DNA of 64,000 nt, from positions 60,184-124,183 of the IMG/VR virus record IMGVR_UViG_3300023184_003735. The stretch is one strand, 5' to 3'. Made by a program: the position numbers and the translations under genes. The stretch is from a virus. Positions 26,401 to 43,177 of the stretch are shown in pieces. The notes beneath the pieces are model-generated. The model saw only the letters and a program-made list of their open reading frames with translations. It did no database searches and had not been told where the DNA came from. Position 1 is the stretch's first letter. Each line of letters starts with the position of its first letter.

Positions 26401-26401
26401 T

Positions 26402-26483: not shown

Positions 26484-26488
26484 CGACT

Positions 26489-27412: not shown

Positions 27413-27434
27413 GACACTTCTCCTTAGAAAAAAT

Positions 27435-27673: not shown

Positions 27674-27749
27674 TGGTGCCTCCTCCAGGTTCCGACCCTG
27701 GTTCCCCGGATTTTCAGTCCGGTGCTATGACCACATCAGCTAAAGAGGC
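27674..27749 (-). tRNA. tRNA-Phe(GAA)
   Basis: CCGGA-CT GAA AA-TCCGG; ACCA. Confidence 0.88.
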
Positions 27750-27754
27750 ATAAT

Positions 27755-27830
27755 TGGTACATCCTGACGGGCTCGAACCGCCGACAGCCTCGGTGTAAGC
27801 GAGGAACTCTACCAACTGAGTTAAGGATGC
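27755..27830 (-). tRNA. tRNA-Val(TAC)
   Basis: CCTCG-CT TAC AC-CGAGG; ACCA. Confidence 0.9.
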
Positions 27831-27835
27831 ATGTT

Positions 27836-27928
27836 TGGCGGAAGACGGAGGAGTCGAACCCCATCCCATTTTGTGAGAACCTGGTTTTCAAGGCCAGTCG
27901 CGGCACCAACGCCACTGCATCATCTTCC
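27836..27928 (-). tRNA. tRNA-Ser(TGA), probable 8/4 fold
   Basis: CT TGA AA loop, long variable arm, GGAAGATG/CGTCTTCC acceptor, GCCA. Confidence 0.85.
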
Positions 27929-27934
27929 TGAATT

Positions 27935-28012
27935 TGGAGCAACGGGCTGGATTCGAACCAGCGGCTTTTGGGATTTGCAATCCCATGCATTGGGCCACTC
28001 TGCCACCGTTGC
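27935..28012 (-). tRNA. tRNA-Cys(GCA)
   Basis: TGGGA-TT GCA AA-TCCCA; TCCA. Confidence 0.9.
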
Positions 28013-28016
28013 ATAT

Positions 28017-28094
28017 TGGTCGGAATGGTGGGATTCGAACTCACGACCCTCTGCTCCCAAAGCAGATGCGCTAACCAGACTGCGCTACACTCCG
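28017..28094 (-). tRNA. tRNA-Pro(TGG)
   Basis: CGGAGTG start, TT TGG GA loop. Confidence 0.92.
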
Positions 28095-28330
28095 AATTTT
28101 TTCTTGATCCACATACCAAACAGTGTGCCACAGTAGGCACCTGCTAGAGCAGGTATCAAGGCCCAATGGTCTTCTGTGTAGTTGATTACTGCTACACTGG
28201 CTGTGAAGGTCACTGCCATGCTCCACCACGCGGCCATTAAGGGACGATTGTCTTGAATTGATTTCACAAAGTAAACGTAAATCAAGTCAGTTGCAAATAC
28301 TGCAAAAAAAGTTATGATATAAGCCCACAT
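28085..28330 (-). CDS. Small membrane protein (3 TM)
   Basis: Hydrophobic; stop codon lies inside tRNA-Pro 5' end. Confidence 0.65.
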   Translation of the reverse strand: MWAYIITFFAVFATDLIYVYFVKSIQDNRPLMAAWWSMAVTFTASVAVINYTEDHWALIPALAGAYCGTLFGMWIKKKFGV

Positions 28331-28331
28331 A

Positions 28332-28562
28332 TTATTTCTTCTTGTCTAGTGTGGGTTCTTGCGGGTTGTCTAATTCATGCGGTTCAGCGAATCTTGCGTT
28401 GCCACCGATGCCTTTCCAACTGTCTTCTGTGAAGATTCTGATGGGTCGCCAGTATCGAGCAATGATATTGTTGATCACCACAAGTGCAATTACCACGGCT
28501 ATAAAGCCCAGTGCTGTCAAAATGCTACCGGCTAAAAATACTGCCGCTTGATCCATGTCCAT
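28332..28562 (-). CDS. Single-TM membrane protein
   Basis: SD AAGGA; N-terminal hydrophobic helix. Confidence 0.65.
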   Translation of the reverse strand: MDMDQAAVFLAGSILTALGFIAVVIALVVINNIIARYWRPIRIFTEDSWKGIGGNARFAEPHELDNPQEPTLDKKK

Positions 28563-28578
28563 ATGTTTTTCCTTTGAG

Positions 28579-28652
28579 TGGAGCGGGATAGCGGAATCGA
28601 ACCGCTGACACTAACTTGGAAGGATAGGGTAATACCATTTTACGAATCCCGC
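28579..28652 (-). tRNA. tRNA-Gly(TCC)
   Basis: GCGGGAT acceptor, CT TCC AA loop. Confidence 0.88.
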
Positions 28653-28675
28653 TCTTATACATTACAATGTATGCT

Positions 28676-28751
28676 TGGTGCCCCCACCATGATTCGAACA
28701 CGGCACCTACTGATTACAAATCAGTTGCTCTACCGAATGAGCTATAGGGGC
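28676..28751 (-). tRNA. tRNA-Thr(TGT)
   Basis: ACTGA-TT TGT AA-TCAGT. Confidence 0.92.
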
Positions 28752-28757
28752 AAATTT

Positions 28758-28833
28758 TGGCTCTCTAGCGTGGGCACGATCCACGGACCTAACGGTTAAC
28801 AGCCGTTTGCTCTACCAACTGAGCTACTAGAGA
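28758..28833 (-). tRNA. tRNA-Asn(GTT)
   Basis: AACGG-CT GTT AA-CCGTT; GCCA. Confidence 0.9.
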
Positions 28834-29027
28834 ATAATTTCAACTGACTTGGCGTCTTGATCACGTATGGCCCACTCAGTGCTACCCACACGTATGTGTA
28901 GACAACAGGCCCCGCGTCGTAACACAGTCACAGTTCGTGTGGCAACAATGCCCATTTGCTGTAGTCGTTCGTTAGTGACGCCGGCTATCACAGCCTGGTC
29001 ATGCGTTTTTAAGTCGTTCAATGTCAT
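28827..29027 (-). CDS. feoA: FeoA-like SH3-domain protein
   Basis: MTLNDL...ERLQQMGI...VTVLRR...LHIRVGSTEWAIRDQDAKSV follows FeoA pattern. Confidence 0.7.
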   Translation of the reverse strand: MTLNDLKTHDQAVIAGVTNERLQQMGIVATRTVTVLRRGACCLHIRVGSTEWAIRDQDAKSVEIIL

Positions 29028-29033
29028 ATGCTT

Positions 29034-29123
29034 TGGCGGAGCGTTAGGGAGTCGAACCCTATCAACCACTTTCATGATTGTACGGATTAGCAATCCGCTG
29101 CCTTACCATCCGGCCCACGCTCC
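29034..29123 (-). tRNA. tRNA-Ser(GCT)
   Basis: TT GCT AA loop, long variable arm, GCCA. Confidence 0.9.
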
Positions 29124-29131
29124 TCTATAGT

Positions 29132-29160
29132 ATTATATAGTCAACGTGTGACCATGTCAA
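29132..29160 (-). promoter_or_regulatory. Consensus sigma70 promoter TTGACA-N17-TATAAT inside tRNA array
   Basis: Perfect boxes, just upstream of tRNA-Ser(GCT). Confidence 0.8.
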
Positions 29161-29168
29161 CAACAATT

Positions 29169-29253
29169 TGGTGGAGATGACTTGAGTCGAACAAGTAGTG
29201 CCAGGGGCGGCTGATTTACAGTCAGCTGGGGTTACCAATTTTCCTACATCTCC
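29169..29253 (-). tRNA. tRNA-Tyr(GTA)
   Basis: GCTGA-CT GTA AA-TCAGC; variable arm; ACCA. Confidence 0.9.
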
Positions 29254-29257
29254 AATT

Positions 29258-29332
29258 TGGTGGACCGTCCCGGGTTCGAACCGGGGACTGAGGCTTGCAA
29301 AGCCACTGTGTTCCCAACTATACCAACAGCCC
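29258..29332 (-). tRNA. tRNA-Ala(TGC)
   Basis: G3:U70, TT TGC AA loop. Confidence 0.9.
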
Positions 29333-29339
29333 AAATTTT

Positions 29340-29416
29340 TGGCGACCCCGAAAGGATTTGAACCTCTGACATTTGGTTTTGGAGACCAACGTTCTGCCGG
29401 ACTGAACTACGGAGCC
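29340..29416 (-). tRNA. tRNA-Trp(CCA)
   Basis: TTGGT-CT CCA AA-ACCAA; GCCA. Confidence 0.9.
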
Positions 29417-29437
29417 ATAACGCACTCTTGCGAATGC

Positions 29438-29520
29438 GTGTATCGAAGCACACCAAGGTCACAAACCCCGACCGTTCATGGCCGCACGAACCTTTTCGGT
29501 ACTGGTATGCTTCGATACAC
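29438..29520 (-). ncRNA. Long-stem multibranch RNA cassette
   Basis: 18-bp helix GTGTATCGAAGCATACCA/TGGTGTGCTTCGATACAC enclosing three small hairpins. Confidence 0.55.
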
Positions 29521-29610
29521 TCGGATTTTTTTATGTACAAGAACATAAGCCATCCCCGAGGCCGCCCATTTGCAGTTTTGAGTGTTGCAGGCTCGCGTTG
29601 CCTTGCACTA

Positions 29611-29645
29611 AATGAAAAACCCTGGAGTTTTAATTCCAGGGTCCT
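29611..29645 (-). terminator. Attenuator terminator 1 (CCCTGGA/TCCAGGG + TTTTTCATTT)
   Basis: GC hairpin + U-tract; its 5' arm can alternatively pair with the end of the leader ORF. Confidence 0.75.
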
Positions 29646-29671
29646 TGGTGTGAATACGGTTGTATACTATG

Positions 29672-29785
29672 TTAGGACCCTGTGTCTCCTGGAATGCTTG
29701 CTGTCAAGCGACCATAGACATGTGACCAGGCGGATGTCTGATTAAACATTGTCTTGGGTAGCGATAAACAGAGTTGCGTTTTCAT
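29672..29785 (-). CDS. Putative leaderless leader peptide 1 (37 aa, MKTQLCLSLPKTMFNQTSAWSHVYGRLTASIPGDTGS)
   Basis: ATG 7 nt after TATAAT; ends in antiterminator strand. Confidence 0.6.
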   Translation of the reverse strand: MKTQLCLSLPKTMFNQTSAWSHVYGRLTASIPGDTGS

Positions 29786-29792
29786 AGTATCA

Positions 29793-29821
29793 ATTATAGT
29801 TTATTTATCATCTCGTGTCAA
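29793..29821 (-). promoter_or_regulatory. sigma70 promoter TTGACA-N17-TATAAT with ATAAATA in the spacer
   Basis: Perfect boxes and spacing. Confidence 0.8.
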
Positions 29822-29865
29822 CCACGACATGCTCTTTCTGTGTTATTTATACAACACAGTTGAAT

Positions 29866-29939
29866 TGGATGCGGGTGACAGATTCGAACTGCCGATGCAC
29901 CTGGCTTATGAGACCGGTGTGGTGGCCACCCTACCCGCG
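29866..29939 (-). tRNA. tRNA(CAT), initiator-like (C1:A72) with shortened D-arm
   Basis: CGCGGGT/ACCCGCA acceptor, CT CAT AA loop, TTCGAAT T-loop. Confidence 0.72.
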
Positions 29940-29980
29940 ATAATATTATTTATAAATTATAAAACAAATAAAATTATTTG

Positions 29981-30835
29981 TCAACCAGGATACAAATTTT
30001 CTTCACTGTCAAATTTGTAGTCGTCTGGCAATACCACCTTGGTTGAGTGGTCAATCAACTCGGCTAACTGGGCGGTGGGTACTCCGGTGACTCTAATTTG
30101 TCTTCTCCTAGAGGTGCAAATTGGAACACCATGCAAAAAATAATCACTATGCAAGTATACCGGATCGTTTGTGGTAAACACTTTTTTGTTGTCATCTCCA
30201 TCCAGTGCCCACCATAGCGGAACACCGCCATCACTGATGTTTAATGCAACGATCACATGACCTTGCTGATATAATCCATTTTCGGCACCAGCATTTTTAG
30301 CGAAAGGCAAACCAGCATCAGCAGAATATCTTGCATCACGATGTATGTTACTGAAACTTCCTGGTGCCAAACTCACACAGTGTATGTTCACAATTCGTTT
30401 AAATGGCAATTGCTTCAAAATAAATTCTACAATTTTTAAATGTTTAAATTCGGGTTTTATTTTATAAAGTCTGTTCAAATGATGATTGCGCATGCAAGAC
30501 CCACCTTCTCCAGCATTACGTTTTACAAAATCGCTATCTGATTCAATAGTGATAAGTTCTAGCAGTTGATTCATTTCAAAGCCAGAAATCCCACGAATTT
30601 CTTCAGTGTATTGTCCAGAATTACCAATTTCTATCGACACGTTCATTTTATCATACAAGATTGGATCTATCATTCCCCATGCCCGATTGAGATTACGAGT
30701 ACCATCTAAAGTTTGCCGGCGTGTACATATAGAGTGCGAAGTTGGTAAAATATATTGGTCATACTCTTCGACAAAGAGTTTGTGGTCAAAGTCGAGATTG
30801 AGTTTTGCGTAAGCAAGATTTGCAAATTGGTGCAT
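29981..30835 (-). CDS. Hypothetical protein, possible 2OG-Fe(II) oxygenase/cupin fold
   Basis: HRD...LHGV...RRQIR pattern. Confidence 0.55.
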   Translation of the reverse strand: MHQFANLAYAKLNLDFDHKLFVEEYDQYILPTSHSICTRRQTLDGTRNLNRAWGMIDPILYDKMNVSIEIGNSGQYTEEIRGISGFEMNQLLELITIESDSDFVKRNAGEGGSCMRNHHLNRLYKIKPEFKHLKIVEFILKQLPFKRIVNIHCVSLAPGSFSNIHRDARYSADAGLPFAKNAGAENGLYQQGHVIVALNISDGGVPLWWALDGDDNKKVFTTNDPVYLHSDYFLHGVPICTSRRRQIRVTGVPTAQLAELIDHSTKVVLPDDYKFDSEENLYPG

Positions 30836-30912
30836 GTTTTTAGTAGTAGATATTTTGAAATCCAACAAGTGGAGTTTCTATTGAAAGTACTATATTTAGT
30901 TCAATTGATAAT

Positions 30913-32364
30913 TCATTGATCATGTTTTTCTAATTCGGGCACAAAATCTTTAAGTTTTACTCCACGACTATTATCAAGTACACGATTAAATTCAAAAAAT
31001 TTTTTTAAACTTTCAGTATCGGGTAGTGAATTTTTTACTTGAATTTCAATTCTATCAATTGTGGTTTTAAAATACTGATCTTGCTGATATCTCTTTAGTT
31101 GTTTGATCAACTGTAAATTGTCAAGAATTGTTTGTGGCTCGGGATGATTCCAAGGCGATTGATCAGGTTCTACGCCAGCAACAAGATTCATGGAACAATG
31201 AACTTTTAAATATTTGTCATCTAAGAAATTATAAAGATCAAACAGGTGTGCAATATTATAGATACTGATCACAGTATTGAAGTTTGCAACACGACCCATA
31301 TCATAAAGTGTAGCAACATTGCGACACCAGTTGTCCCATTTGATAGGCCATCTAATGTAGCGATTTAATTGATCAAATCCGTCTACACTCACACTAAATT
31401 CTAGATTAGGAAATTTGTTACAGTAGTCTAACATCTGAGTTGATAAGACTGATGCATTGGTGCTGACTTCAAATGCAATATCATTGCGTTGCTTTTCAAT
31501 GCATTGGTCAAGGAATTGAAAAAATTCCTTGTTTATAGTGGGCTCTCCTCCGGCTATTTGTAGACATCGCACATGGTCAATGTCAACGTGATCAAAAATA
31601 CCTTGTTTTTTGTGATTAGTATAGTTTGATAGACCAATTGCTCTATATTCTCTAGCAATGAGATGCGAATTGCCAGGAACACACATTCGACACATTGCAT
31701 TACAACGATTGTCTAATACCGCATATACATACAATGGTGAAGGTACAGTTGTTACATCTTGTTGCGTTTTAATATTAAACTTGCTACTCCAAGTTTGAGT
31801 AAAATTTTGTCTTTGACTGGTCATTCCTAGATCTTCTTTTTGCCAACAATGACTGCATTCATCAACACGTTTTCCCTGCAACATACTCTGTTTTACGGAC
31901 TGGCTCCATGATGCATCAAATTTATCAGATGGTCTTGATTGCATGTGACAGCAATGACTTTTTTGCTTTTGTGTTTGGTATAGCCCAACGAATGGTACAA
32001 TGCAAAAGGCTGGATTAGTATGTAATTCTTTTAGAATCCATGGTACCAAGTCGGGATTTTGATATTCCACTACAAAAGATTTTTGTAAGTCAAATATCAT
32101 GCTGATTGTTATTGCAAAATCTTCAGCATTATTGTAAGATTCTTGATCTTGATCTAACAATATAATTTTGCATGATTTACCATACAACAGGGTCTGCAAC
32201 TCAGCCGGTGTTATATCGTATATACTGGTATGATAGACACCAGAAGATAAGTTTGTATTTCGATCCAATACTAATTTATATTCAAGATCGTGTTGTTGTG
32301 CAATTTTTTGTGTAATTTTGTGTGCTATTTTATTGCCTGTGCCCACACATACAATTAGATTCAT
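30913..32364 (-). CDS. Radical SAM protein with N-terminal twitch/SPASM-like domain
   Basis: FCIVPF..HCC..CSHCW, CNAMCRMC, GGEPT, STNAS, SVDG..YIRW. Confidence 0.87.
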   Translation of the reverse strand: MNLIVCVGTGNKIAHKITQKIAQQHDLEYKLVLDRNTNLSSGVYHTSIYDITPAELQTLLYGKSCKIILLDQDQESYNNAEDFAITISMIFDLQKSFVVEYQNPDLVPWILKELHTNPAFCIVPFVGLYQTQKQKSHCCHMQSRPSDKFDASWSQSVKQSMLQGKRVDECSHCWQKEDLGMTSQRQNFTQTWSSKFNIKTQQDVTTVPSPLYVYAVLDNRCNAMCRMCVPGNSHLIAREYRAIGLSNYTNHKKQGIFDHVDIDHVRCLQIAGGEPTINKEFFQFLDQCIEKQRNDIAFEVSTNASVLSTQMLDYCNKFPNLEFSVSVDGFDQLNRYIRWPIKWDNWCRNVATLYDMGRVANFNTVISIYNIAHLFDLYNFLDDKYLKVHCSMNLVAGVEPDQSPWNHPEPQTILDNLQLIKQLKRYQQDQYFKTTIDRIEIQVKNSLPDTESLKKFFEFNRVLDNSRGVKLKDFVPELEKHDQ

Positions 32365-32374
32365 TATAAATTTT

Positions 32375-32766
32375 GCTCGGTTAAATGCTCTGACATCCCT
32401 CGGCGGTAATTATAGAGCATTGAGTGATAGTCTTTCCACTACACACCGCAACTTGTACTCCTTCCACCCGCTTCCCGACAGGGACCGTTCTCGTATTGCT
32501 AACGCCGGTTAGGTTAGACCGCATCTTTCGATGTGAGACTTATATTCCAAATCTCAGAACCACCCGTGCTTGTCACAGCACTTCTCATCGTCTGGGTCAG
32601 ACTATCCAGTGACGCTGGAACGTTAGGGAAGGGCTGGCCCCATAACGGGATACCACTTAGCCTTACTTATCTGTCGCGTTGGAGTAAGGCACCCTAATTA
32701 GGAGAGAAGCCACGGTTGCAGGACCTAGTGCCTTTTGCAAGGGAAGTATCCAGGCGGTGTGGCTTC
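32375..32766 (-). ncRNA. Candidate large structured ncRNA downstream of tRNA-Asp
   Basis: GC-rich, no credible ORF, several helices and a likely 3' pseudoknot. Confidence 0.5.
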
Positions 32767-32773
32767 AAAAACT

Positions 32774-32848
32774 TGGCGGTCCGAACGGGAATCGAACCCG
32801 TCTCCTCGCAGTGACAGTGCGAAATACTAACCGATATACTATCGAACC
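32774..32848 (-). tRNA. tRNA-Asp(GTC)
   Basis: TCGCA-CT GTC AC-TGCGA; GCCA. Confidence 0.92.
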
Positions 32849-32850
32849 AA

Positions 32851-33006
32851 ATGTTATAGTCAAGCACCGAGAATGCCAATTTATGCGTCCTCCGCTAAGA
32901 GTGCAAAAGCCGAATGCAGTTATATTAGGATCAGTCGCCGGCCGCTGTGACCCGAATAGTGTTGGCGTCCCATACACGATACCTTATCGATGCTTGACTA
33001 TAACAT
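32851..33006 (-). ncRNA. Long-stem RNA cassette
   Basis: ATGTTATAGTCAAGCATCGA/TCGGTGCTTGACTATAACAT 20-bp helix around ~115 nt. Confidence 0.55.
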
Positions 33007-33007
33007 T

Positions 33008-33132
33008 TACCATATAGAAGCACTCTCGCCAGCAGGCCTAGGAGGGGACTTGCACCACTGAAACTTTCGCATCTGCAGATACTAGGCTTCTTCTCCTGCT
33101 TTGACTTATGCCAAGAATACTTCTATATGGTA
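33008..33132 (-). ncRNA. Long-stem RNA cassette beginning at tRNA-Glu CCA
   Basis: TACCATATAGAAGTATTCTTG/CGAGAGTGCTTCTATATGGTA helix with G-U pairs. Confidence 0.55.
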
Positions 33133-33203
33133 CTCCGTGGGGGAATCGAACCCCTCCTTACCCGCGTGAAAGGCGAGTGTCCTAACCGATAGACGAACGG
33201 AGC
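33128..33203 (-). tRNA. tRNA-Glu(TTC)
   Basis: CTCGC-CT TTC AC-GCGGG; ACCA. Confidence 0.92.
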
Positions 33204-33212
33204 ATGTAGTTT

Positions 33213-33672: not shown

Positions 33673-34829
33673 CGAAAATAATTTTGGATTTTGCCAGATC
33701 TGCTGATGTCGTTTGTGACACAATGAATGCCGCAATCCCAGAAATATTTGTGACGGAACGGCACCACATGCACTTCGATGCCATGTCGTGCGCAGGCCTT
33801 CTCTACCTGGTCGTTGTGTGTGCTGACCACAATGTTCTTGGGATCCACTATCAGGATGTTGACGTCGAACACAGTTTCACTAACCTGTCCCACCCACTCG
33901 TCAAAGTAGTGATCCACCATGTGAACCAAGTTGTTGTCCTGTTCAAACCCGGGCATGAACCAACGTCCCTTGTTGCGTTTCATGGAGTACTCAAACTCGC
34001 GCATGTGTGCGTAGTTGCTGGGTGGCAGGTACACCACTTCCCAGTCTGGGAAGGTGTCAGCATAGGTGGGAACATCATTGAGGCTGATGATCAGACCCGG
34101 CGTCACTGGGCAATACACCGCATCACCGTGCCCACCTGAATTGACCACTCTATTTTGAGTTGTAGGAAACAACTGATTCACTTGATCTAGTATGCCTTGT
34201 TTGTCATCATGATAGGTTTGTGTGGCAAAGTACAAGTCCTCACCTATGCGACTCACAAAACAGCCGTTGATGAAATCAAGATCAGTTGACACAATCTCAT
34301 TGCCCTGCGCCTTGATGTCCGCAAACACATGAGAATAAAACCCCAACTTGGCGTCTAGATGCGCTTGATCAGTCTGATTGAATCTAGCAAACTTGGCCTG
34401 TACCTCTTCGGCAAACTCAGGATAGTCTGCATAAAAATCCGCAGGACGTATGTGGTCGTTCCACCAAGGCTGTTTGTTCTGTCGGTAAAACACTGACCAT
34501 GCATGACTGGCATTGGGAATTCGGGGAACCCAAAATCTGTCCTGAATCATCAAAAAGTAATCTCTTGGTGCTGTGGGCGGTTGCACCCACTTGTTATCTA
34601 TGTACAGTTGGGACAAGTCCGTGGGAAACTCCGGACGCATCACACGCACACCAAATCGATCTGTCAACAGTCGTATGAGTCGTTGATAGTCTTCTTCGGT
34701 CTCTTGTGCAAGAGTTTCAAAGCGTTCTCGGGTGGCAGAGTTCTTGATCCAACTGTAGAACTCTGGGGGATAAGTGCGACCCACTAATGAGACTTGTAGT
34801 GGATCCCAGTGTTGATATACTGAATACAT
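33669..34829 (-). CDS. Second amidinotransferase
   Basis: HWDPLQVSLVG, APRD, GHGD, ETVFDVN, CGIHCVT; paralog of 5469-6506. Confidence 0.82.
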   Translation of the reverse strand: MYSVYQHWDPLQVSLVGRTYPPEFYSWIKNSATRERFETLAQETEEDYQRLIRLLTDRFGVRVMRPEFPTDLSQLYIDNKWVQPPTAPRDYFLMIQDRFWVPRIPNASHAWSVFYRQNKQPWWNDHIRPADFYADYPEFAEEVQAKFARFNQTDQAHLDAKLGFYSHVFADIKAQGNEIVSTDLDFINGCFVSRIGEDLYFATQTYHDDKQGILDQVNQLFPTTQNRVVNSGGHGDAVYCPVTPGLIISLNDVPTYADTFPDWEVVYLPPSNYAHMREFEYSMKRNKGRWFMPGFEQDNNLVHMVDHYFDEWVGQVSETVFDVNILIVDPKNIVVSTHNDQVEKACARHGIEVHVVPFRHKYFWDCGIHCVTNDISRSGKIQNYFR

Positions 34830-34874
34830 AGATAGACTTTTTGATAGTCTACTATATATTGATATCGCTTTGGG

Positions 34875-35039
34875 TCAAGGCTTTTTGACTCGATTGCAAG
34901 CAGGATCTTTACAAGCAGTGATTCGTTTGCGATCACAGTCGGGGCAGTCTCGGATTCGGACCCAGTTGGCGGGCATGAATCTTATGACCTCATTTTTTCC
35001 GGGTTTGTCCTGACTGTCACATTTGGTAGCATGTATCAT
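34875..35039 (-). CDS. Small Cys-rich protein
   Basis: SD AAGGAG; CPDC..C..C. Confidence 0.45.
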   Translation of the reverse strand: MIHATKCDSQDKPGKNEVIRFMPANWVRIRDCPDCDRKRITACKDPACNRVKKP

Positions 35040-35094
35040 CAATGTCTCCTTGACATACATATACAACGTGTTAGCCCGCAAAAGGGTTGACAAG

Positions 35095-35117
35095 AGAAAC
35101 CCGCCGAAGCGGGTTCT
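35095..35117 (-). terminator. Terminator after tmRNA
   Basis: AACCCGC-TTCG-GCGGGTT hairpin + TTCTCTT. Confidence 0.7.
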
Positions 35118-35274
35118 GGTGATTTCTGTTACGAGGTATTTCCTACCCTAGGCCGCTCACGCTGCCAAAGAATAAACGCTATCGTTTGCATTTACTAGTT
35201 TTGCTTGATTTACGGTCATCGCCTACCGAGCGCCATTACCCCTACTCTTTGCCCTGTCGAAACTATGCAGGCCC
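35118..35274 (-). ncRNA. ssrA: tmRNA coding piece (two-piece, permuted); tag ANDSVYSLAA* at 35189-35157
   Basis: 5' GGGCCTGCATAGTTTCGAC; resume context GTAAAT-GCA AAC GAT; tag ends LAA-TGA. Confidence 0.9.
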
Positions 35275-35275
35275 A

Positions 35276-35644
35276 TCATAAAGAAACTTGTTTGAGGTAT
35301 TGCTCACCTTCGCCAGTAACATACCAATACTCATTGTCATTGACAATGTATCCTAAATCTGCCAAACTATCCATAGCATTGTCAAAGGCTTGGGTGCGTG
35401 ACTCATCTTCTACATAGTCTAATCCTGACATGATGGCAGTATAGATTCCTTTTAGTATTAGAATTTTACCTAATCCTTTGCTTTGAAAGGTTGGATCTAA
35501 CTCTACTAAACTTCTTCCACTATCTGCATCGTATTGAAACGTTCCTGCATACTGCCCGTCAACATTCATTTCAACACCAATAGTATTACTACCTTTTGTT
35601 GTGTTAAAACTTAGTTTTGAACCGGCAATATCAGTAATACGCAT
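35276..35644 (-). CDS. GNAT-like protein encoded inside the tmRNA intervening segment
   Basis: SD AAGGAAG right after CCA; LDPTFQSKGLGK resembles acetyl-CoA motif A. Confidence 0.7.
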   Translation of the reverse strand: MRITDIAGSKLSFNTTKGSNTIGVEMNVDGQYAGTFQYDADSGRSLVELDPTFQSKGLGKILILKGIYTAIMSGLDYVEDESRTQAFDNAMDSLADLGYIVNDNEYWYVTGEGEQYLKQVSL

Positions 35645-35656
35645 CAAACTTCCTTA

Positions 35657-35720
35657 TGGTGGACCTGGGGGGATTCGCACCCCCGTCCAGAACACTTTTC
35701 TTGATAACAGTTTACGCTGT
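35657..35720 (-). ncRNA. ssrA: tmRNA acceptor piece (T-arm, acceptor 3' strand, CCA)
   Basis: TGTTCTGGACGGGGGTGCGAATCCCCCCAGGTCCACCA; pairs with GGGCCTG giving G3:U70; 5' end approximate. Confidence 0.88.
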
Positions 35721-35760
35721 TCAAGTATTTATTATACTATCAAATTGATTTGATGTCGAC

Positions 35761-35940
35761 CTATTTGGTACTCTGATTGCACGTGGCCACAATCTGTTTG
35801 TTTTGGGCCCGGAACTCTTCACGTTTCTGAACTCGGGCCTGCTCGCATTCCGCTTGGGTTTTGAACTTGGCTTGTTCGCCATACTCAGGCACTGGTCCCA
35901 AGACACTAAAACTCAACACCCAGATCAGAGTCCGGCTCAT
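35761..35940 (-). CDS. Small exported protein
   Basis: Hydrophobic N-terminus, FKTQAECEQA motif. Confidence 0.55.
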   Translation of the reverse strand: MSRTLIWVLSFSVLGPVPEYGEQAKFKTQAECEQARVQKREEFRAQNKQIVATCNQSTK

Positions 35941-35979
35941 AAACAATTCCCAAAACGGATTCAAGTCCGTGGGTAATAT

Positions 35980-36873
35980 TTATTGATTTTTAGGTTTTGT
36001 GTTGGCTATGCGTTCAAAGATTCGGATTTCTCGGTTGGCATACTCAGCGGCTTTCTTTGGGCCATGATTCAGCACAGTAAGGCCTGGCAAATCTCGAAAT
36101 TCAGAATTTACTGTGGCTTGTACCAAACGTGACATGGTCATCACAGCCTCTTGACCAGTATCTTGCCTGGCCCAAATAGCATACCAATTGTTGGTGTATG
36201 CGCCGGTGAATCCCAGTTCACCGGCAGTGGGCACAGCGGGCAATTGTGGCAGGCGTTGGTCTGCAAACACCAGCATCGGCCGAACTTGATTGTCTTTGAC
36301 ATATGGGGCAATGCCAGTGTGTGCCAAGACTCCGTATTCGGTATGTCCGGGTATGACATCATTCAGCATGGGTGCCAGGCCCTTGTACGGGATCAAGTTG
36401 AGCGGTGTAGGTGACTTTAGATCATTCAGCCAAACCTCACCTTGATTGGCAATGCCTACATTGATGGTGTCCCGGTTTCGAATCTGTTGTCGAATTCGAT
36501 TATCTGTGCTGGCAGTGAACAAGATGTAAGGACTTTCGCCAATCACCATGGCCGGCAAAAACTTTTGATATGTCGCAGTTCCCAACATAGCCGGGCCCAC
36601 AACAAATCCAGCGTCAGCAATGATAAATGTGTGATTGTCGTTGGCACGACCCAGTACATGTGTGGTGGCAACTGCAATGGCCGCACCCGGCATGTACTGA
36701 ACCTCAACTGGAAACGACACCCGGTCTTGAAAGTCTTTTTGTATGGCTCTGGCAAACTTGTCAACCAAGCCACCTGGCGGATATGGCACAATAAGTGTGA
36801 TGGGTCGTGTGGGCCATGCCCACACACTCAGTGACATTAACATAGCCACAATAAAAGTCAAAAGTTTTTTCAT
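35980..36873 (-). CDS. Bug/TctC tripartite tricarboxylate transporter substrate-binding protein
   Basis: Signal peptide; WPTRPITLIVPYPPGG..D..AR, IPYKG, RLPQLPAVPT. Confidence 0.9.
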   Translation of the reverse strand: MKKLLTFIVAMLMSLSVWAWPTRPITLIVPYPPGGLVDKFARAIQKDFQDRVSFPVEVQYMPGAAIAVATTHVLGRANDNHTFIIADAGFVVGPAMLGTATYQKFLPAMVIGESPYILFTASTDNRIRQQIRNRDTINVGIANQGEVWLNDLKSPTPLNLIPYKGLAPMLNDVIPGHTEYGVLAHTGIAPYVKDNQVRPMLVFADQRLPQLPAVPTAGELGFTGAYTNNWYAIWARQDTGQEAVMTMSRLVQATVNSEFRDLPGLTVLNHGPKKAAEYANREIRIFERIANTKPKNQ

Positions 36874-36875
36874 GT

Positions 36876-37736
36876 TTACATTCCTAGTATTTGTTTTGTT
36901 TCAGCAGGAGTTGCTAGTTCGCCGCCAAGATCGTCTATAAGCCTTGCCGCCTTTTGCACTAGTTGTGCATTGGTTTTTGCCAGTTCACCGTGACGAATAT
37001 AAATGTTGTCTTCCAAGCCCACTCTTGCATGTCCGCCATTGAGATATGACAGCGCCACAAATGGCATCTGCATCTGGCCTATGCCAAAGGCTGACCATGT
37101 TGCGGGGTTGGGCATGATTTGTTTGGCGTACTCTAGAGTGGCTGTGGTTGAATCCCAGCCCCATCGAATACCTGTGGCCAATTGTATGAATGGTATGTTA
37201 TTTATAGTACCATCTTCAATCAACATAGAAACAATGCGTAAATCACCACTGTCAAAACATTCCAACTCGGGCTTGACTCCGGCTGATTTCATTATGGCTG
37301 CCATCTCTCTTATGATCTTGATAGAATTTACAGTGATCTTTTTAGGGCCTCGGTTCATGGTGTTGAGATCAAGACTGCAAATTTCTGGCCGCAGTTCAAC
37401 CACATGACGAGTGCGCTGTTCTGCTGTGCAGAAACCTGGGTCCAACTCTCCAAACACCACATCACTTGATCCACTGGCACCCGGTCCACAAGTCAAATTG
37501 ATCAGCACACTATCATTCTGATCTCTGATGCGATCCACTACTTCTTTGTACAGTTCAAATCGCATGCTGGGTAATCCTTTTACAGGATCACGTACATGCA
37601 GATGCACTATAGCGGCACCTGCGTCTGCGGCCTCCAATGCACTCTGCGCGATTTGTTCAGGAGTGATGGGCAAGTATGGTGTTTGCTTGGGCAAAGTTCC
37701 ACTGCCAGTAACAGCACAAGTCAATATAGTTTTCAT
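36876..37736 (-). CDS. Beta-keto acid cleavage enzyme (BKACE/DUF849)
   Basis: TCAVTG, LPITPEQIA, AGAAIVHLHVRD, KPELECFD, RVGLEDN. Confidence 0.92.
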   Translation of the reverse strand: MKTILTCAVTGSGTLPKQTPYLPITPEQIAQSALEAADAGAAIVHLHVRDPVKGLPSMRFELYKEVVDRIRDQNDSVLINLTCGPGASGSSDVVFGELDPGFCTAEQRTRHVVELRPEICSLDLNTMNRGPKKITVNSIKIIREMAAIMKSAGVKPELECFDSGDLRIVSMLIEDGTINNIPFIQLATGIRWGWDSTTATLEYAKQIMPNPATWSAFGIGQMQMPFVALSYLNGGHARVGLEDNIYIRHGELAKTNAQLVQKAARLIDDLGGELATPAETKQILGM

Positions 37737-38479
37737 AATATGCGACCCCCGTCCACTACAAAACAATCTCCTGTGGCATAACGCATGGTCAAGGCCACTG
37801 ACTCTACTACTGCTGCCACATCCTCTGGAACAGCAATACGCTTTAGTGGAGTAGCCTCACTGGCTCGATCATAAAATTCTTGACCATGTGTTAAAAATCC
37901 TGTGTTGACAGAACTAGGGCAAATAGATACAACTCGAACAACAGGTGCCAACGCTAGTGCCAAGTTCTTGGTCATTGATTCTACACCTGCCTTGGCAGCC
38001 ACATAGGCAATGTTACTACCATGCCCAGGTTTTAATGCAGAAGCAGAACTGATGTTGACAATCAAGGCATGTTTACTTTGGGTCAATAAAGATTCAAATA
38101 CTCGCACTGTAGAAAATACTGCTCTGCAATTCATAATCAACATCTCATCAAAAAATTCATCACTCAACGTATCTAAATTTTTGTGTGGAATGGATTTGGA
38201 AAAGCCAGCTGAGTTGACCAATATATCGCAACGAGTCAAGTCACTGGCCAATGCTGTTAGTTCATCACTGTTTCTTACATCTGCTAACTTGACTTGATGT
38301 CCAGTTCCGGGCAGGGTGCTCATGAACTCAGCCAAGTCATCTAAATTGCGCCATGTAACTCCCACCACTTGAGCACCGCGTCGGGCAAGTGTGTGAGCAA
38401 TGGCCCTACCGATGCCACCATTGGCTCCTGTTACCACAGCAAGTTGTCCATTTAAATTTTCTAAAGATTCAAAAGTCAT
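37733..38479 (-). CDS. SDR family oxidoreductase
   Basis: TGANGGIG, VNSAG, YVAAK. Confidence 0.92.
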   Translation of the reverse strand: MTFESLENLNGQLAVVTGANGGIGRAIAHTLARRGAQVVGVTWRNLDDLAEFMSTLPGTGHQVKLADVRNSDELTALASDLTRCDILVNSAGFSKSIPHKNLDTLSDEFFDEMLIMNCRAVFSTVRVFESLLTQSKHALIVNISSASALKPGHGSNIAYVAAKAGVESMTKNLALALAPVVRVVSICPSSVNTGFLTHGQEFYDRASEATPLKRIAVPEDVAAVVESVALTMRYATGDCFVVDGGRIL

Positions 38480-38481
38480 GT

Positions 38482-39627
38482 TCACTCCAATTGATATGTA
38501 TTGATACAACCCTTGATACCGCGGGTCAAGTCAGTTGTGCTGTTTACCCAGTAATCACCTACTCTTGACAGCAATTCTTTGACACCGCCTTGGGCGTTGC
38601 GCACCGCTTCGGATGTGGTTTGATTCCAGAACCAGTTGTCTCTTTCAGACAACAACAAATTTTGTGGCTTGGGTGCCACAATGGTCGTTGGATCCCATCC
38701 AGGATAAATCACAGTGTGATATATGTCATTACGTAGATATCGGCCACTAAGTCGATGTTGGGGCAAATGTGCTCCACTCACATCTGAAAACCAGGGACTG
38801 TCTGCAGATTCTTGATTTAGTATTTTCATCAATACATGACTTTGTTTGGCCACAATAGGTGCTGTGTCTGGAGCCCAGTAAAACCATTCGTCAAAGTAAC
38901 CATTGTTGGCCATGGACTGTAAACGCAAGTTGGTTTCAGAGAACACATCAAGAAAACATGTATGCCATTTTCCGTCGAATACTTTTAGTCTGGGTTTTTC
39001 TGTGCCCCATAGGAAACACATCTTTTTGCCGCTGTCAATGATCTGTCGGTATTCATTCACATATTCTCTAATGTAAGACCGAGCCAAACTATTGGCAGAC
39101 ATAATGCCCTTGATGTTGTAGATGTAATCATACTTGACATCTGGCCGCAAATAAATGTCGCTGATAATTTCACTAATGTCTACCACACGATGTTCGATGC
39201 CCGGATGTTGTTCAAGTATCTGTTGTGTCTTTGGTATGGCAGTGTAGAACACTTCTTCATTGATCACACTGTGTCGGTCTTTGTCTGCATCGTAACTCAC
39301 AAACTGTGCAATTTCATCCACCTTGATATTGTTCTTGAGAAACGCATTTAACATGCACCAGCCGTCAGGGCCACCACCGTACCATACTACAACATAGTCG
39401 TAGTTGTCTCGTATCTGTTGAGCCCGCTGTCGGTACAACTCGTCCAATGACTCTACAGGTTCTTTTGTCCAGTCAAACTTGCTGTAGGTTTCTTTATTGA
39501 AGTGCCAATCTAAGTGAACTCCTGTTCGCTTCATTTCTTCAATGGCCAGTAATTTACTGTAGGTTTTGAAGTTTTCTCCAACTGTATAATAACCAAATTG
39601 GTCACCAGAGTAAGTGTTAGTAAAAAT
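38482..39627 (-). CDS. Hypothetical protein with degenerate PP-loop (YGGGPD); probable ATT start
   Basis: Open frame extends 31 codons upstream of track ATG to an ATT 5 nt after SD AGGAG. Confidence 0.65.
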   Translation of the reverse strand: MFTNTYSGDQFGYYTVGENFKTYSKLLAIEEMKRTGVHLDWHFNKETYSKFDWTKEPVESLDELYRQRAQQIRDNYDYVVVWYGGGPDGWCMLNAFLKNNIKVDEIAQFVSYDADKDRHSVINEEVFYTAIPKTQQILEQHPGIEHRVVDISEIISDIYLRPDVKYDYIYNIKGIMSANSLARSYIREYVNEYRQIIDSGKKMCFLWGTEKPRLKVFDGKWHTCFLDVFSETNLRLQSMANNGYFDEWFYWAPDTAPIVAKQSHVLMKILNQESADSPWFSDVSGAHLPQHRLSGRYLRNDIYHTVIYPGWDPTTIVAPKPQNLLLSERDNWFWNQTTSEAVRNAQGGVKELLSRVGDYWVNSTTDLTRGIKGCINTYQLE

Positions 39628-43098: not shown

Positions 43099-43173
43099 TG
43101 GTCCGGCGTAGTGGAATCGAACCACTATTATCTCTTTAGAAGAAAGATGTCCTATCCGTTGAACGAACGCCAG
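43099..43173 (-). tRNA. tRNA-Arg(TCT)
   Basis: TCTTT-CT TCT AA-AGAGA; ACCA. Confidence 0.9.
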
Positions 43174-43177
43174 TGAA

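What the first reader, a model, noticed from the sequence alone, without database searches (positions are those of the whole stretch)
35095..35760. Circularly permuted two-piece phage tmRNA with a protein gene inside its intervening segment
Seen (minus strand order): promoter (TCGACA-N17-TATAAT), acceptor piece ending CAGGTCC-A-CCA at 35657, a 382-nt spacer, then the 5' end GGGCCTG at 35274 (G3:U70 alanine identity), tag ANDSVYSLAA* and a terminator. The spacer is almost entirely one ~122-aa ORF: its SD follows the CCA directly and its TGA ends 1 nt before G1. The spacer ends pair as CATAAGGAAGTTTG/CAAGTTTCTTTATG (14 bp with G-U), extending the acceptor helix and hiding the SD. Established: permuted ssrA occurs in Alphaproteobacteria and some cyanobacteria and betaproteobacteria, and its intervening segment is normally short and non-coding. 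Inference: tmRNA maturation excises a stem-closed mRNA, or the spacer is a tolerated cargo slot. The protein has a GNAT-like QSKGLG motif, and some GNATs acetylate aminoacyl-tRNA.
Basis: partly seen in the sequence, partly recalled or inferred. Interest (0 to 1): 0.88.

Follow-up and report, generated by a model that had tools for sequence, protein, structure and literature searches.

The report
Protein gene inside phage tmRNA spacer
A large uncultured lake phage carries a two-piece ribosome-rescue RNA (tmRNA) gene whose normally discarded spacer holds a real, selected gene for a small acetyltransferase-like protein, and related phages use the same stem-closed spacer as a swappable slot for many other small genes.

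Summary
Observation confirmed. Rfam's permuted-tmRNA model matches 35168-35719 (-) at 104.9 bits with a 382-nt insert between CCA (35657) and G1 (35274). The insert is a 122-codon gene under purifying selection (dN/dS 0.11), a divergent mini-GNAT-like domain that otherwise occurs inside large multi-domain phage proteins.

New here: all 26 full copies sit in the same 382-nt tmRNA spacer. The spacer is far more conserved (93% mean identity) than the tmRNA pieces (77% and 51%). Its history is uncoupled from theirs (Mantel r 0.09 and 0.01; AU p 0.0014). Close tmRNA relatives have 25-43-nt hairpin spacers instead.

In 156 distinct spacers of this phage tmRNA family, 55 hold sense ORFs of about 28 families. 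They share a covarying closing helix that supplies the Shine-Dalgarno and, in many, the stop codon. The spacer is therefore a general exchangeable cargo slot.

Not shown: processing, translation, enzyme activity. Five literature searches found no description. This scan had already found the same thing on other DNA.

The parts
35731..35759 (-). sigma-70-like promoter of the tmRNA gene (TCGACA, 17 nt, TATAAT)
   Evidence: 11 of 12 matches, the best of 9 promoter-like sites in 34800-36100. TTGACA-type promoters stand at the same place in several related loci (alignment).
35657..35720 (-). acceptor piece of the two-piece tmRNA: 5' strand of the inter-piece helix, T-arm (stem 35684-35680 / 35672-35668, loop 35679-35673), acceptor 3' strand 35667-35661, discriminator A 35660, CCA 35659-35657
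   Evidence: Rfam RF04321 alignment. The T-stem varies by paired changes among relatives (GGGGG/CCCCC, GCGGG/CCCGC).
35275..35656 (-). intervening segment (spacer), 382 nt, absent from the mature tmRNA by analogy with known two-piece tmRNAs
   Evidence: Aligned as one insertion between CCA and G1. It is 382 nt in all 26 full copies. Mean pairwise identity is 93.3% against 76.9% and 51.4% for the tmRNA pieces.
35645..35658 (-). 5' strand of the spacer-closing helix (last two bases of CCA plus spacer bases 1-12); contains the Shine-Dalgarno AAGGAAG
   Evidence: Sequence and MFE fold. In 156 distinct spacers (21 nt or longer) of the family, the first 10 spacer positions pair with their partners in 91.8% of cells, against 67.9% (sd 0.8) when partners are shuffled, with many pair types per position.
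35277..35290 (-). 3' strand of the spacer-closing helix; encodes the last codons (Q V S L) and the first two bases of the stop codon
   Evidence: In L148 and L149 a U becomes C opposite a G, turning G-U into G-C. In L005 a G becomes A opposite a U.
35276..35644 (-). cargo gene, 122 codons plus TGA: divergent mini-GNAT-like protein
   Evidence: 59 of 60 candidates are homologs at E <= 0.01. dN/dS is 0.11, with variable sites 36/25/84 by codon position. AF2 model has pLDDT 86.8. Acetyltransferases lead the fold searches. The Q/R-x-x-G-x-G motif (recalled definition) is at residues 52-57.
35095..35274 (-). coding piece of the two-piece tmRNA: acceptor 5' strand GGGCCTG 35274-35268, D-loop analogue, tag region, 3' hairpin
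   Evidence: Rfam alignment. Acceptor pair 6:67 covaries: U-A here, A-U in L148, C-G in L149.
35157..35189 (-). tag reading frame: resume codon GCA, ANDSVYSLAA, then TGA
   Evidence: All 18 of 18 distinct ORF-bearing relatives examined keep an AND....AA-type tag with a stop.
35098..35115 (-). G+C-rich hairpin (AACCCGC-TTCG-GCGGGTT) followed by TCTCTTG: probable 3' end or terminator
   Evidence: Sequence. It is aligned to the terminal hairpin of beta_tmRNA. The terminator scan did not flag it.

Best explanation
This is a working phage-encoded two-piece (circularly permuted) tmRNA gene whose spacer has been taken over as a gene slot. One sigma-70-type promoter drives a precursor that reads acceptor piece, 382-nt spacer, coding piece. 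The spacer ends pair into a helix of about 12-14 bp that stacks on the acceptor stem, so the two tmRNA halves meet however long the cargo is. The 5' strand of that helix carries the Shine-Dalgarno. The 3' strand carries the last codons and a UGA that is part of the conserved UGAU before G1. The cargo is a 122-aa mini-GNAT-like protein, a solo copy of a domain that related lake phages carry inside large multi-domain ('polyvalent'-type) proteins, so it is probably a host-takeover or counter-defence enzyme. The cargo is an exchangeable cassette. It is present or absent in otherwise similar tmRNA genes and has moved among diverged tmRNA genes. It is one of about 28 ORF families found in this slot. 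The conserved tmRNA halves probably serve as homology arms for recombination between co-infecting phages.

Shown: the gene anatomy, selection on the protein, the covarying closing helix, intact tmRNA features, the presence/absence polymorphism, the uncoupled histories and the cargo diversity.

Inferred: transcription from the one promoter; release of the spacer by RNase P at G1 and by 3'-end maturation at CCA; translation from the precursor or the released spacer; acetyltransferase activity; the recombination mechanism.
For: tmRNA. RF04321 scores 104.9 bits, E 2.9e-21. G3:U70 and ACCA are present. Acceptor pair 6:67 covaries U-A / A-U / C-G. Tags are intact in 18 of 18 distinct ORF-bearing genes.

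Cargo is a real gene. 59 homologs. Mean dN 0.045 and dS 0.401 over 171 pairs of 19 sequences; variable sites 36/25/84 by codon position.

Same slot everywhere. The spacer is 382 nt in 26 of 26 full copies. 21 of 78 metagenome loci (13 whole, 8 cut by a contig end) show tmRNA ends around the ORF, and these are all the loci at 76% identity or more. The other 57 (70% identity or less) show none and mostly lie in ORFs of up to 1671 aa.

Cassette behaviour. The spacer is 93.3% identical on average, against 76.9% and 51.4% for the tmRNA bodies. Pairs such as L003/L137 and L012/L013 differ at 0.3% of spacer sites but at 35-51% of tmRNA-body sites. Mantel r is 0.09 (p 0.29) and 0.01 (p 0.46). ORF presence needs at least 9 changes on the tmRNA-body tree, at least 4 forced by well-supported branches. 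The AU test rejects one clade, p 0.0014. L012 and L267 are syntenic at about 80% identity on both flanks, one with the cassette and one with a 25-nt spacer. Flanks beyond the tmRNA are unalignable between loci with near-identical spacers.

General slot. There are 156 distinct spacers of 11-491 nt. A sense ORF of 20 aa or more fills at least 60% of the spacer in 2 of 65 (up to 60 nt), 13 of 43 (61-100 nt), 13 of 18 (101-200 nt) and 27 of 30 (201-500 nt). These fall into 28 blastp families. They include a Pfam-positive GNAT and a CxxCxxCC protein. The stop codon ends one base before G1 in 10 of the 28 families. UGA or UAA stands at -4..-2 in 75 of 79 spacers from the scan that fixed only the acceptor end. 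The closing helix is 91.8% paired against 67.9% for shuffled partners.

Fold. AF2 pLDDT 86.8. All 46 listed Foldseek PDB rows are acetyltransferase-superfamily entries, but E is 1.7e-3 at best. VIA Z is 8.2 (Tip60) and 7-7.7 for many GNATs. Named BFVD matches are mostly NAT_SF or N-acetyltransferase phage proteins. ESM Atlas neighbours are viral GNAT clusters.

RNA. Contigs from four metatranscriptome runs of four studies cover the spacer. One 438-nt contig bridges both junctions (35249-35686).
Against: No direct evidence of processing, of translation or of enzyme activity. The metatranscriptome data are assembled contigs, so they cannot show ends or strand and may contain DNA. Pfam GNAT models do not match the protein. 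Fold scores are middling: Z about 8 is common for unrelated models by the tool's own note, and the C-terminal half also resembles winged-helix domains. No SmpB gene is found in the 124-kb contig, which is estimated at 36% complete, so the phage may rely on the host's. The 14-bp helix hides the Shine-Dalgarno, so translation needs the helix to open. Some short 'ORFs' that run on into the mature tmRNA may be chance. The tmRNA-body tree rests on 176 columns and its bootstrap had not settled.
Confidence: 0.8

Rival explanations
1. The cassette is a purely selfish mobile insertion (homing-type element) that targets the tmRNA spacer. The protein serves its own spread, not the phage.
For: Spacers are near-identical (0.3% different) in tmRNA genes that differ at 35-51% of sites and in unalignable flanks. 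ORF presence is polyphyletic on the tmRNA tree. tmRNA genes are known to hold group I introns with homing endonuclease genes (PMC11915505, passages).
Against: No nuclease or integrase signature was found in Pfam, PHROGs or the fold searches. No intron or ribozyme family matched in 35000-35900 at E <= 1. The same domain is a selected module of large phage proteins. About 27 other unrelated cargo families use the same slot, which points to a property of the site, not of this protein.
Confidence: 0.1
2. The mini-GNAT works together with the tmRNA, for example by acetylating an aminoacyl-tRNA or alanyl-tmRNA. On this reading the nesting reflects a shared function in manipulating translation.
For: Only co-location and co-transcription from one promoter. 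Toxin GNATs that acetylate aminoacyl-tRNA exist (recalled, not checked here).
Against: The slot holds membrane peptides, a CxxCxxCC protein, another GNAT and many unknowns, so nesting is generic. 57 of 78 metagenome loci with the domain have no tmRNA ends beside it. The protein lacks the N-terminal helices that full-size GNATs have, to judge by the secondary structure of the model (the comparison is recalled).
Confidence: 0.07
3. The cargo-bearing tmRNA gene is a disrupted relic. The insertion killed the tmRNA, and only the protein gene is functional.
For: ARAGORN fails to call it. The spacer is more than ten times longer than in close relatives.
Against: Tags are intact in 18 of 18. Compensatory changes in the acceptor stem and T-stem occur among cargo-bearing genes. 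The closing helix is maintained. Cargo-bearing genes score 69-111 bits for RF04321 in 7 loci where the hit spans the insert.
Confidence: 0.03

Closest known systems
Circularly permuted two-piece tmRNA genes (Rfam RF04321, RF01849, RF01850, RF01851), including those of aquatic phages such as OM43 phage Melnitz (PMC9004378, passages read; PMC11915505, passages read)
   Same: The gene order is acceptor piece, intervening sequence, coding piece. It has a tRNA-like domain with G3:U70 and an encoded CCA, and a tag frame ending in AA. Phage copies are known, mostly aquatic: 53 of 133 phage tmRNA types were two-piece in PMC9004378.
   Different: In the passages I read, the spacer is treated as discarded sequence. 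The only contents mentioned are one tRNA-Ala ('a unique feature') and a repetitive element (PMC11915505). Here it holds a selected protein gene, and across relatives it is an exchangeable slot with a built-in ribosome-binding site and stop codon.
tmRNA genes interrupted by group I introns, some with LAGLIDADG homing endonuclease genes (PMC11915505, passages read)
   Same: A protein gene lies inside a tmRNA gene and is removed from the mature RNA. It is a presence/absence polymorphism.
   Different: Those sit in the T-loop, are self-splicing ribozymes, and encode the nuclease that moves them. Here the cargo sits between CCA and G1 and no ribozyme was found. Removal would be by ordinary tRNA end processing, and the cargo is not a nuclease.
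GNAT domains of phage 'polyvalent proteins' and their solo versions (Iyer et al. 2017, PMC5512222, passages read)
   Same: The domain occurs in multi-domain phage proteins beside other GNATs, a deaminase and metallopeptidase-like motifs. A solo version exists, as that paper describes for other GNAT families.
   Different: This domain is not matched by Pfam GNAT models. Its solo version is nested in a stable-RNA gene. I did not test whether it belongs to either of the two GNAT families of that paper.
   Same: mRNAs are released or delimited by tRNA processing. Small genes are shuffled between phages through short conserved flanking elements.
   Different: Here both boundaries belong to one RNA gene, whose two halves must re-associate. 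The flanking helix doubles as ribosome-binding site and stop codon.

Membership tests
Two-piece (circularly permuted) tmRNA, Rfam RF04321 | Covariance-model score above the curated cut-off | tested here: met
   104.9 bits against a cut-off of 47, E 2.9e-21, model positions 1-193 of 213. In the whole-window scan the hit was partial (58.6 bits), and RF01849 scored 53.7 bits against a cut-off of 50.
Two-piece (circularly permuted) tmRNA, Rfam RF04321 | Permuted order: T-arm and acceptor 3' strand with CCA lie upstream of the acceptor 5' strand and the tag frame | tested here: met
   CCA at 35659-35657, G1 at 35274, tag at 35189-35157 on the minus strand.
Two-piece (circularly permuted) tmRNA, Rfam RF04321 | Seven-pair acceptor stem with the G3:U70 alanine identity pair, supported by covariation | tested here: met
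   GGGCCUG pairs with CAGGUCC. Pair 6:67 is U-A here, A-U in L148 and C-G in L149. L011 has a U-U mismatch there.
Two-piece (circularly permuted) tmRNA, Rfam RF04321 | Tag reading frame starting with an Ala resume codon and ending in hydrophobic residues plus AA and a stop | tested here: met
   ANDSVYSLAA* in the window. 18 of 18 distinct cargo-bearing relatives have AND....AA-type tags.
Two-piece (circularly permuted) tmRNA, Rfam RF04321 | Partner protein SmpB available | tested here: inconclusive
   No PF01668 match in the phage's 124-kb contig, which is estimated at 36% complete. The host's SmpB could serve.
Two-piece (circularly permuted) tmRNA, Rfam RF04321 | Precursor cut into two pieces that stay paired; alanylation | not testable with these tools
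   Only assembled metatranscriptome contigs were available.
GNAT (GCN5-related N-acetyltransferase) superfamily | Match to a curated GNAT sequence model | tested here: not met
   No Pfam GNAT family at E <= 1; the only hit is HTH_45 at 15.5 bits, below its cut-off. One homolog (P0059) is named 'GNAT superfamily N-acetyltransferase' by its source.
GNAT (GCN5-related N-acetyltransferase) superfamily | Acetyl-CoA pyrophosphate-binding motif Q/R-x-x-G-x-G/A between strand 4 and helix 3 (motif definition recalled) | tested here: met
   Q-S-K-G-L-G at residues 52-57 follows strand 44-49 and precedes helix 58-72. Relatives have Q, R or K at the first position; the first G is nearly invariant and the second G is invariant.
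GNAT (GCN5-related N-acetyltransferase) superfamily | GNAT fold | tested here: inconclusive
   All 46 listed Foldseek PDB rows are acetyltransferase-superfamily entries, but the best E is 1.7e-3 and TM about 0.5. VIA Z is 8.2 and 7-7.7, within the range the tool calls common. BFVD gives 5 matches at E <= 1e-3, with named ones NAT_SF or N-acetyltransferase. The N-terminal helices are absent.
GNAT (GCN5-related N-acetyltransferase) superfamily | Acyl transfer from acyl-CoA to a substrate | not testable with these tools
   Needs a biochemical assay.
Domain of phage polyvalent-type multi-domain proteins (PMC5512222) | Occurs with several unrelated conflict-type domains in one long phage polypeptide | tested here: met
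   57 of 78 metagenome loci lack tmRNA ends and mostly lie in ORFs of up to 1671 aa. Those ORFs hold other GNATs, a dCMP-type deaminase and DUF6934. 1030 cluster representatives match at E <= 1e-3, most of the best 150 listed being longer proteins.
Homing endonuclease gene or self-splicing intron | Nuclease domain in the protein, or a ribozyme around it | tested here: not met
   No nuclease family in Pfam or PHROGs. Fold matches are acetyltransferases and winged helices. No intron family in 35000-35900 at E <= 1.

The most novel reading that the evidence does not exclude
The spacer of these phage two-piece tmRNA genes is a dedicated, structure-defined expression site. A strong early promoter and the host's tRNA-processing enzymes turn a stable-RNA precursor into a dispenser of stem-closed mini-mRNAs whose ribosome-binding site and stop codon are supplied by the site itself. 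The two tmRNA halves act as universal homology arms, so that phages trade small host-takeover genes through it: an integron-like cassette system without an integrase. After RNase P cleavage the stop codon lies one base from the 3' end. The released message may therefore be read in competition with, or under control of, the very tmRNA it is cut from.
Probability: 0.35. Interest if true: 0.9.

Novelty: new variant of a known kind. Interest (0 to 1): 0.8.

Why it matters
tmRNA is one of the best-studied stable RNAs, and the spacer of its two-piece form has been treated as waste. A selected protein gene in that spacer means one transcript is both a stable-RNA precursor and a messenger. Across related phages there are dozens of different small genes in the same frame, with ribosome-binding site and stop codon built into a covarying helix. 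The cell's tRNA-end enzymes would then double as mRNA-release enzymes. It also reveals a compact way for phages to exchange small accessory genes, using a conserved RNA gene as the landing pad. It gives a ready list of small, strongly expressed early phage proteins (membrane peptides, mini-acetyltransferases, cysteine-rich proteins) to test for host takeover or counter-defence. For annotation, it explains why tmRNA finders miss these genes (ARAGORN did here) and why the cargo is called as an orphan hypothetical protein.

Tried and rejected
Searches that found nothing.
- ARAGORN found 25 tRNAs but no tmRNA.
- Pfam and PHROGs gave nothing significant for the ORF.
- The GenBank phage collection has no match to the region (blastn), to the protein (tblastn) or to the coding piece. 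No cultured relative could be named.
- The profile search against PDB sequences gave only a short eS10-like winged-helix match, E 0.005. I treat it as a local resemblance.
- No SmpB in the contig.
- The terminator scan did not flag the 3' hairpin.

Scans with limits.
- The first gap-pattern scan returned mostly chance matches. My filter kept 11 loci, about 7 of them clear tmRNAs with the T-arm and TCGA features.
Loci already fetched earlier (for example L234, L252) were left out of the count.

Rows dropped.
- The 852-nt 'spacer' of L090, L097 and L106: a 293-aa frame runs through it and past 'G1', so it is probably not a tmRNA.
- L144: 5' end cut.
- L138: coding piece only 84 nt.
- L149: left out of the body-identity, tree and Mantel analyses because its coding piece is cut at 40 nt, but kept for dN/dS.
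- Identical sequences were collapsed.

RNA evidence.
- Only contigs were available, so there are no ends, no strand and no levels.
- No RNA contig covered 35704-35790 or 35080-35103. That is no evidence about transcript ends.
- The summed depth over the tag region and T-arm (hundreds to thousands) against about 10 over the spacer mixes many relatives and perhaps hosts. I do not use it as a measure.

Ideas rejected.
- Assembly artefact: the same geometry occurs in 26 full copies from many samples.
- Deletion origin of the short spacers: the same short hairpin types occur in distant tmRNA lineages.

Not seen. They may list phage tmRNAs with long spacers. My statement that the arrangement is not in print rests and on the passages read.
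Full report
WHAT IS THERE. On the minus strand of 35095-35760 the sequence reads as follows:
- a sigma-70-like promoter (TCGACA, 17 nt, TATAAT; 35759-35731; 11 of 12 matches);
- a T-arm and acceptor 3' strand ending CAGGTCC-A-CCA, with A76 at 35657;
- a 382-nt spacer (35656-35275);
- GGGCCTG from 35274, which gives seven acceptor pairs including G3:U70;
- a tag frame at 35189-35157 reading ANDSVYSLAA-stop;
- a G+C hairpin at 35115-35098.

Rfam's merged permuted-tmRNA model RF04321 matches 35168-35719 at 104.9 bits (cut-off 47, E 2.9e-21) and treats the 382 nt as one insertion between CCA and G1. In the whole-window scan, alpha_tmRNA (RF01849) passed its cut-off at 53.7 against 50 bits. ARAGORN missed the gene. 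The window is part of a 124-kb IMG/VR virus contig estimated at 36% complete, with 25 tRNA genes by ARAGORN and 25 by Rfam, two of them not called by ARAGORN. It is therefore a very large phage. Public runs that hold the stretch are lake and freshwater metagenomes: 20 rows from 18 studies.

THE SPACER IS A REAL GENE. The ORF from ATG 35644 to TGA 35278-35276 (122 codons) fills 369 of the 382 nt. Its Shine-Dalgarno (AAGGAAG) starts three bases after CCA, and its stop codon ends one base before G1. 59 of 60 candidate proteins are homologs at 98-54% identity, with invariant blocks. Among 19 distinct copies, mean dN is 0.045 and mean dS 0.401 (ratio 0.11). Variable sites number 36, 25 and 84 at codon positions 1, 2 and 3. 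That is the signature of a translated, constrained protein.

WHAT THE PROTEIN IS. Pfam and PHROGs give nothing significant. An AlphaFold model built on 33 sequences is confident (pLDDT 86.8, pTM 0.82). It has four strands, then a Q-S-K-G-L-G loop, then helix, strand, helix, a beta hairpin and a helix. That loop sits where GNAT enzymes bind the pyrophosphate of acetyl-CoA (Q/R-x-x-G-x-G/A; motif definition recalled).

The fold searches point the same way but are not decisive:
- All 46 listed Foldseek PDB rows are acetyltransferase-superfamily entries, but the best E is 1.7e-3 and TM about 0.5.
- The Foldseek-independent search gives Z 8.2 for a MYST acetyltransferase and Z 7-7.7 for many GNATs. 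It also gives Z about 7 for winged-helix proteins over residues 50-122.
- BFVD gives 5 matches at E <= 1e-3, mostly phage 'NAT_SF' proteins.
- The ESM Atlas neighbours are viral GNAT clusters.

I read the protein as a divergent mini-GNAT that lacks the N-terminal helices. Catalysis is untested.

WHERE THE DOMAIN NORMALLY LIVES. A profile search of 1.84 billion cluster representatives finds 1030 hits at E <= 1e-3. Nearly all of the best 150 are parts of longer proteins, and only one representative is the 122-aa form. In 78 metagenome loci, every copy at 76% identity or more is the solo form with tmRNA ends around it: 13 whole, plus 8 cut by a contig end but with G1 downstream. The other 57 loci, at 70% identity or less, have no tmRNA ends and mostly lie inside ORFs of up to 1671 aa.

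Those long proteins string together other GNATs, a dCMP-type deaminase, DUF6934, HExxH-type motifs and more. The units are often separated by a recurring QGVAEG linker. This matches the 'polyvalent proteins' of phages, in which GNAT domains and solo versions are described (PMC5512222, passages). The cargo is thus a solo copy of a conflict-type module. That argues for a host-directed enzyme rather than a tmRNA-specific partner.

THE CASSETTE AND THE tmRNA HAVE DIFFERENT HISTORIES. All 26 full copies have a spacer of exactly 382 nt (the window, 12 IMG/VR loci and 13 metagenome loci, some being the same contig in two collections). Among 18 distinct genes:
- mean pairwise identity is 93.3% for the spacer (minimum 84.6%);
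- it is 76.9% for the body of the acceptor piece (minimum 49%);
- it is 51.4% for the body of the coding piece.

Spacer distances do not correlate with tmRNA-body distances (Mantel r 0.09, p 0.29, and r 0.01, p 0.46). The two tmRNA pieces correlate with each other (r 0.38, p 0.0025). Pairs such as L003/L137 or L012/L013 differ at 0.3% of spacer sites but at 35-51% of tmRNA-body sites. They share no alignable DNA beyond the tmRNA gene within 3 kb. Flanking proteins, where homologous at all, are 22-61% identical between most loci, against 89-100% for the cargo. The exceptions are the close pairs L005/L006, L004/L007 and L007/L011, whose flanking proteins are 79-94% identical. A functional RNA cannot drift faster than the synonymous sites of the gene it encloses (dS 0.03-0.3 for many pairs). 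The spacer must therefore have been exchanged.

CARGO-FREE RELATIVES EXIST. Pattern scans of IMG/VR found 90 phage two-piece tmRNA genes with spacers of 11-43 nt that fold as simple hairpins. Several have tmRNA pieces nearly identical to cargo-bearing ones: L271 to L004 and L005, L252 and L260 to L013, L251 to L003, and L328 to L148. In each case the similarity breaks about four bases after CCA and about eight bases before G1. L012 (cassette) and L267 (25-nt spacer) are syntenic at about 80% identity on both flanks.

On a tree of tmRNA bodies (18 with cargo, 58 without), cargo presence needs at least 9 changes, at least 4 of them forced by well-supported branches. Shuffled labels need 16.4 on average. 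The AU test rejects a single cargo-bearing clade, p 0.0014. The tree is short (176 columns) and its bootstrap had not settled, so I lean more on the distance contrasts.

THE SLOT IS GENERAL. Pooling everything gives 233 tmRNA genes and 157 distinct spacers. One 852-nt case was dropped as a probable false positive.

The closing helix is real. In one fixed register the first ten spacer bases pair with their partners in 91.8% of cells, against 67.9% (sd 0.8, maximum 70.0% of 200) when 3' ends are dealt out among sequences. Shifted registers score far lower. Pair types are rich: position 5 has G-C 48, C-G 46, A-U 25, U-A 14, G-U 10 and U-G 6.

A sense ORF of at least 20 aa that starts in the first 40 nt and fills at least 60% of the spacer occurs in:
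- 2 of 65 spacers up to 60 nt;
- 13 of 43 of 61-100 nt;
- 13 of 18 of 101-200 nt;
- 27 of 30 of 201-500 nt.

That makes 55 ORFs in 28 blastp families. A few of the shortest, which read on into the tmRNA, may be chance. The cargo includes hydrophobic peptides of 23-40 aa, a CxxCxxCC protein (PF03692, 26.6 bits against a cut-off of 23), a Pfam-positive 111-aa GNAT (PF13508, 28.5 against 27), proteins of 101-151 aa of unknown kind, and one spacer with two ORFs in tandem.

Unrelated cargo families share the same geometry. The start codon is at spacer position 10-15, behind an AAGG-type Shine-Dalgarno in the 5' helix strand. The stop codon ends one base before G1 in 10 of the 28 families and 12-13 bases before it in 8 others. 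UGA or UAA stands at -4..-2 in 75 of 79 spacers from the acceptor-only scan, coding or not. This is because its U and G pair with the A and C of CCA. The cargo genes thus exploit structural bases of the site.

THE tmRNA STAYS FUNCTIONAL. All 18 distinct cargo-bearing genes keep a canonical tag (AND....AA or a close variant) with a stop. Acceptor pair 6:67 and the T-stem change by compensating substitutions. The fold of acceptor stem plus spacer is unusually stable (-117.9 kcal/mol, z -4.1) and closes both helices.

EXPRESSION. One strong promoter-like site precedes the acceptor piece, and similar TTGACA-type sites precede it in relatives. Contigs from four metatranscriptome libraries of four studies cover the spacer. 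One of 438 nt spans both junctions (35249-35686). Other contigs in the same libraries join the tmRNA halves without the 374-391 nt between, as cargo-free relatives would. Contigs cannot show ends or strand, and DNA may be present, so this is only a weak hint of transcription.

MECHANISM, WITH ITS STATUS.
- Shown: the anatomy, selection on the protein, the covarying helix, intact tmRNA features, the polymorphism, the exchange and the cargo diversity.
- Inferred from what is established for two-piece tmRNAs (PMC11915505, introduction passage): tRNA-processing enzymes cut the precursor. RNase P at G1 and 3'-end maturation at CCA would release the spacer.
- Inferred: the cargo is translated from the precursor or from the released, stem-closed RNA. 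The helix hides the Shine-Dalgarno. A ribosome finishing the ORF would melt the 3' strand, which may couple rounds of initiation.
- Inferred: exchange occurs by recombination between co-infecting phages, with the conserved tmRNA halves as homology arms. No nuclease, integrase or ribozyme was found.

COMPARISON AND NOVELTY. Two-piece tmRNAs, including phage ones, are known (PMC9004378, PMC11915505). The 2025 tmRNA database paper mentions as spacer contents only one tRNA-Ala, called unique, and a repetitive element, and it lists only 79 phage sequences (passages). Five full-text searches found no report of protein genes in a tmRNA spacer. Supplements could not be seen.

This scan itself has met the arrangement before on other DNA: 53 notes in at least 44 genomes, including the same 122-codon cassette. 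I looked at those notes only after searches had shown the slot, and they agree with my reading. I class the finding as a new variant of a known kind: a known RNA gene with an undescribed, apparently widespread second use.

Noticed in passing
window 35764-35940 (-): The 59-aa ORF just upstream of the tmRNA promoter is 49% identical (E 6e-22) to the cargo ORF inside the tmRNA spacer of another phage contig (L420, 203-nt spacer). The same small genes therefore occur inside and beside the slot. No tmRNA remnants were seen around the window's copy.
   Followed up: partly
L015:1036-3921; L183:398-4546; L203:1631-5092 and others: The long multi-domain proteins that hold the domain separate their modules with a recurring Q-G-V-A-E-G linker. 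This may be a protease site for cutting the polyprotein into units.
   Followed up: no
L385 (256-nt spacer), L351 (132-nt spacer): One spacer holds two small membrane-peptide ORFs in tandem. The second is a homolog of the single cargo of another spacer, so cargo units can be stacked.
   Followed up: no
L404 (79-nt spacer): This spacer contains a T-arm-like GGTTCGAGTCC element. It recalls the tRNA gene reported in one tmRNA spacer (PMC11915505).
   Followed up: no
window 35980-38509 (-): Directly upstream of the tmRNA lie genes for a TctC-like solute-binding protein (PF03401, E 3e-14) and a beta-keto acid cleavage enzyme (PF05853, E 4.6e-90). Next comes a 258-aa ORF that I took from its sequence to be a short-chain dehydrogenase; it was not scanned. 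This is unusual metabolic cargo for a phage.
   Followed up: no
window 25400-33210 and 43099-43252 (-): There are 25 tRNA genes by ARAGORN. Rfam adds two tRNA-like matches that ARAGORN does not call (27312-27382 at 48.9 bits; 25492-25562 at 37.5 bits).
   Followed up: no
cargo protein residues 89-119 (window 35288-35380): The C-terminal hairpin and helix (GYIV.D..YWYVT..GEQYL) resemble the winged-helix N-terminal domain of eukaryotic ribosomal protein eS10 in sequence (E 0.005), and winged-helix regulators in fold (Z about 7).
   Followed up: partly
L333, L338, L331, L419 and others: Some cargo ORFs have no stop inside the spacer and read 13-39 nt into the mature tmRNA 5' end. RNase P cleavage would leave them without a stop codon.
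   Followed up: no
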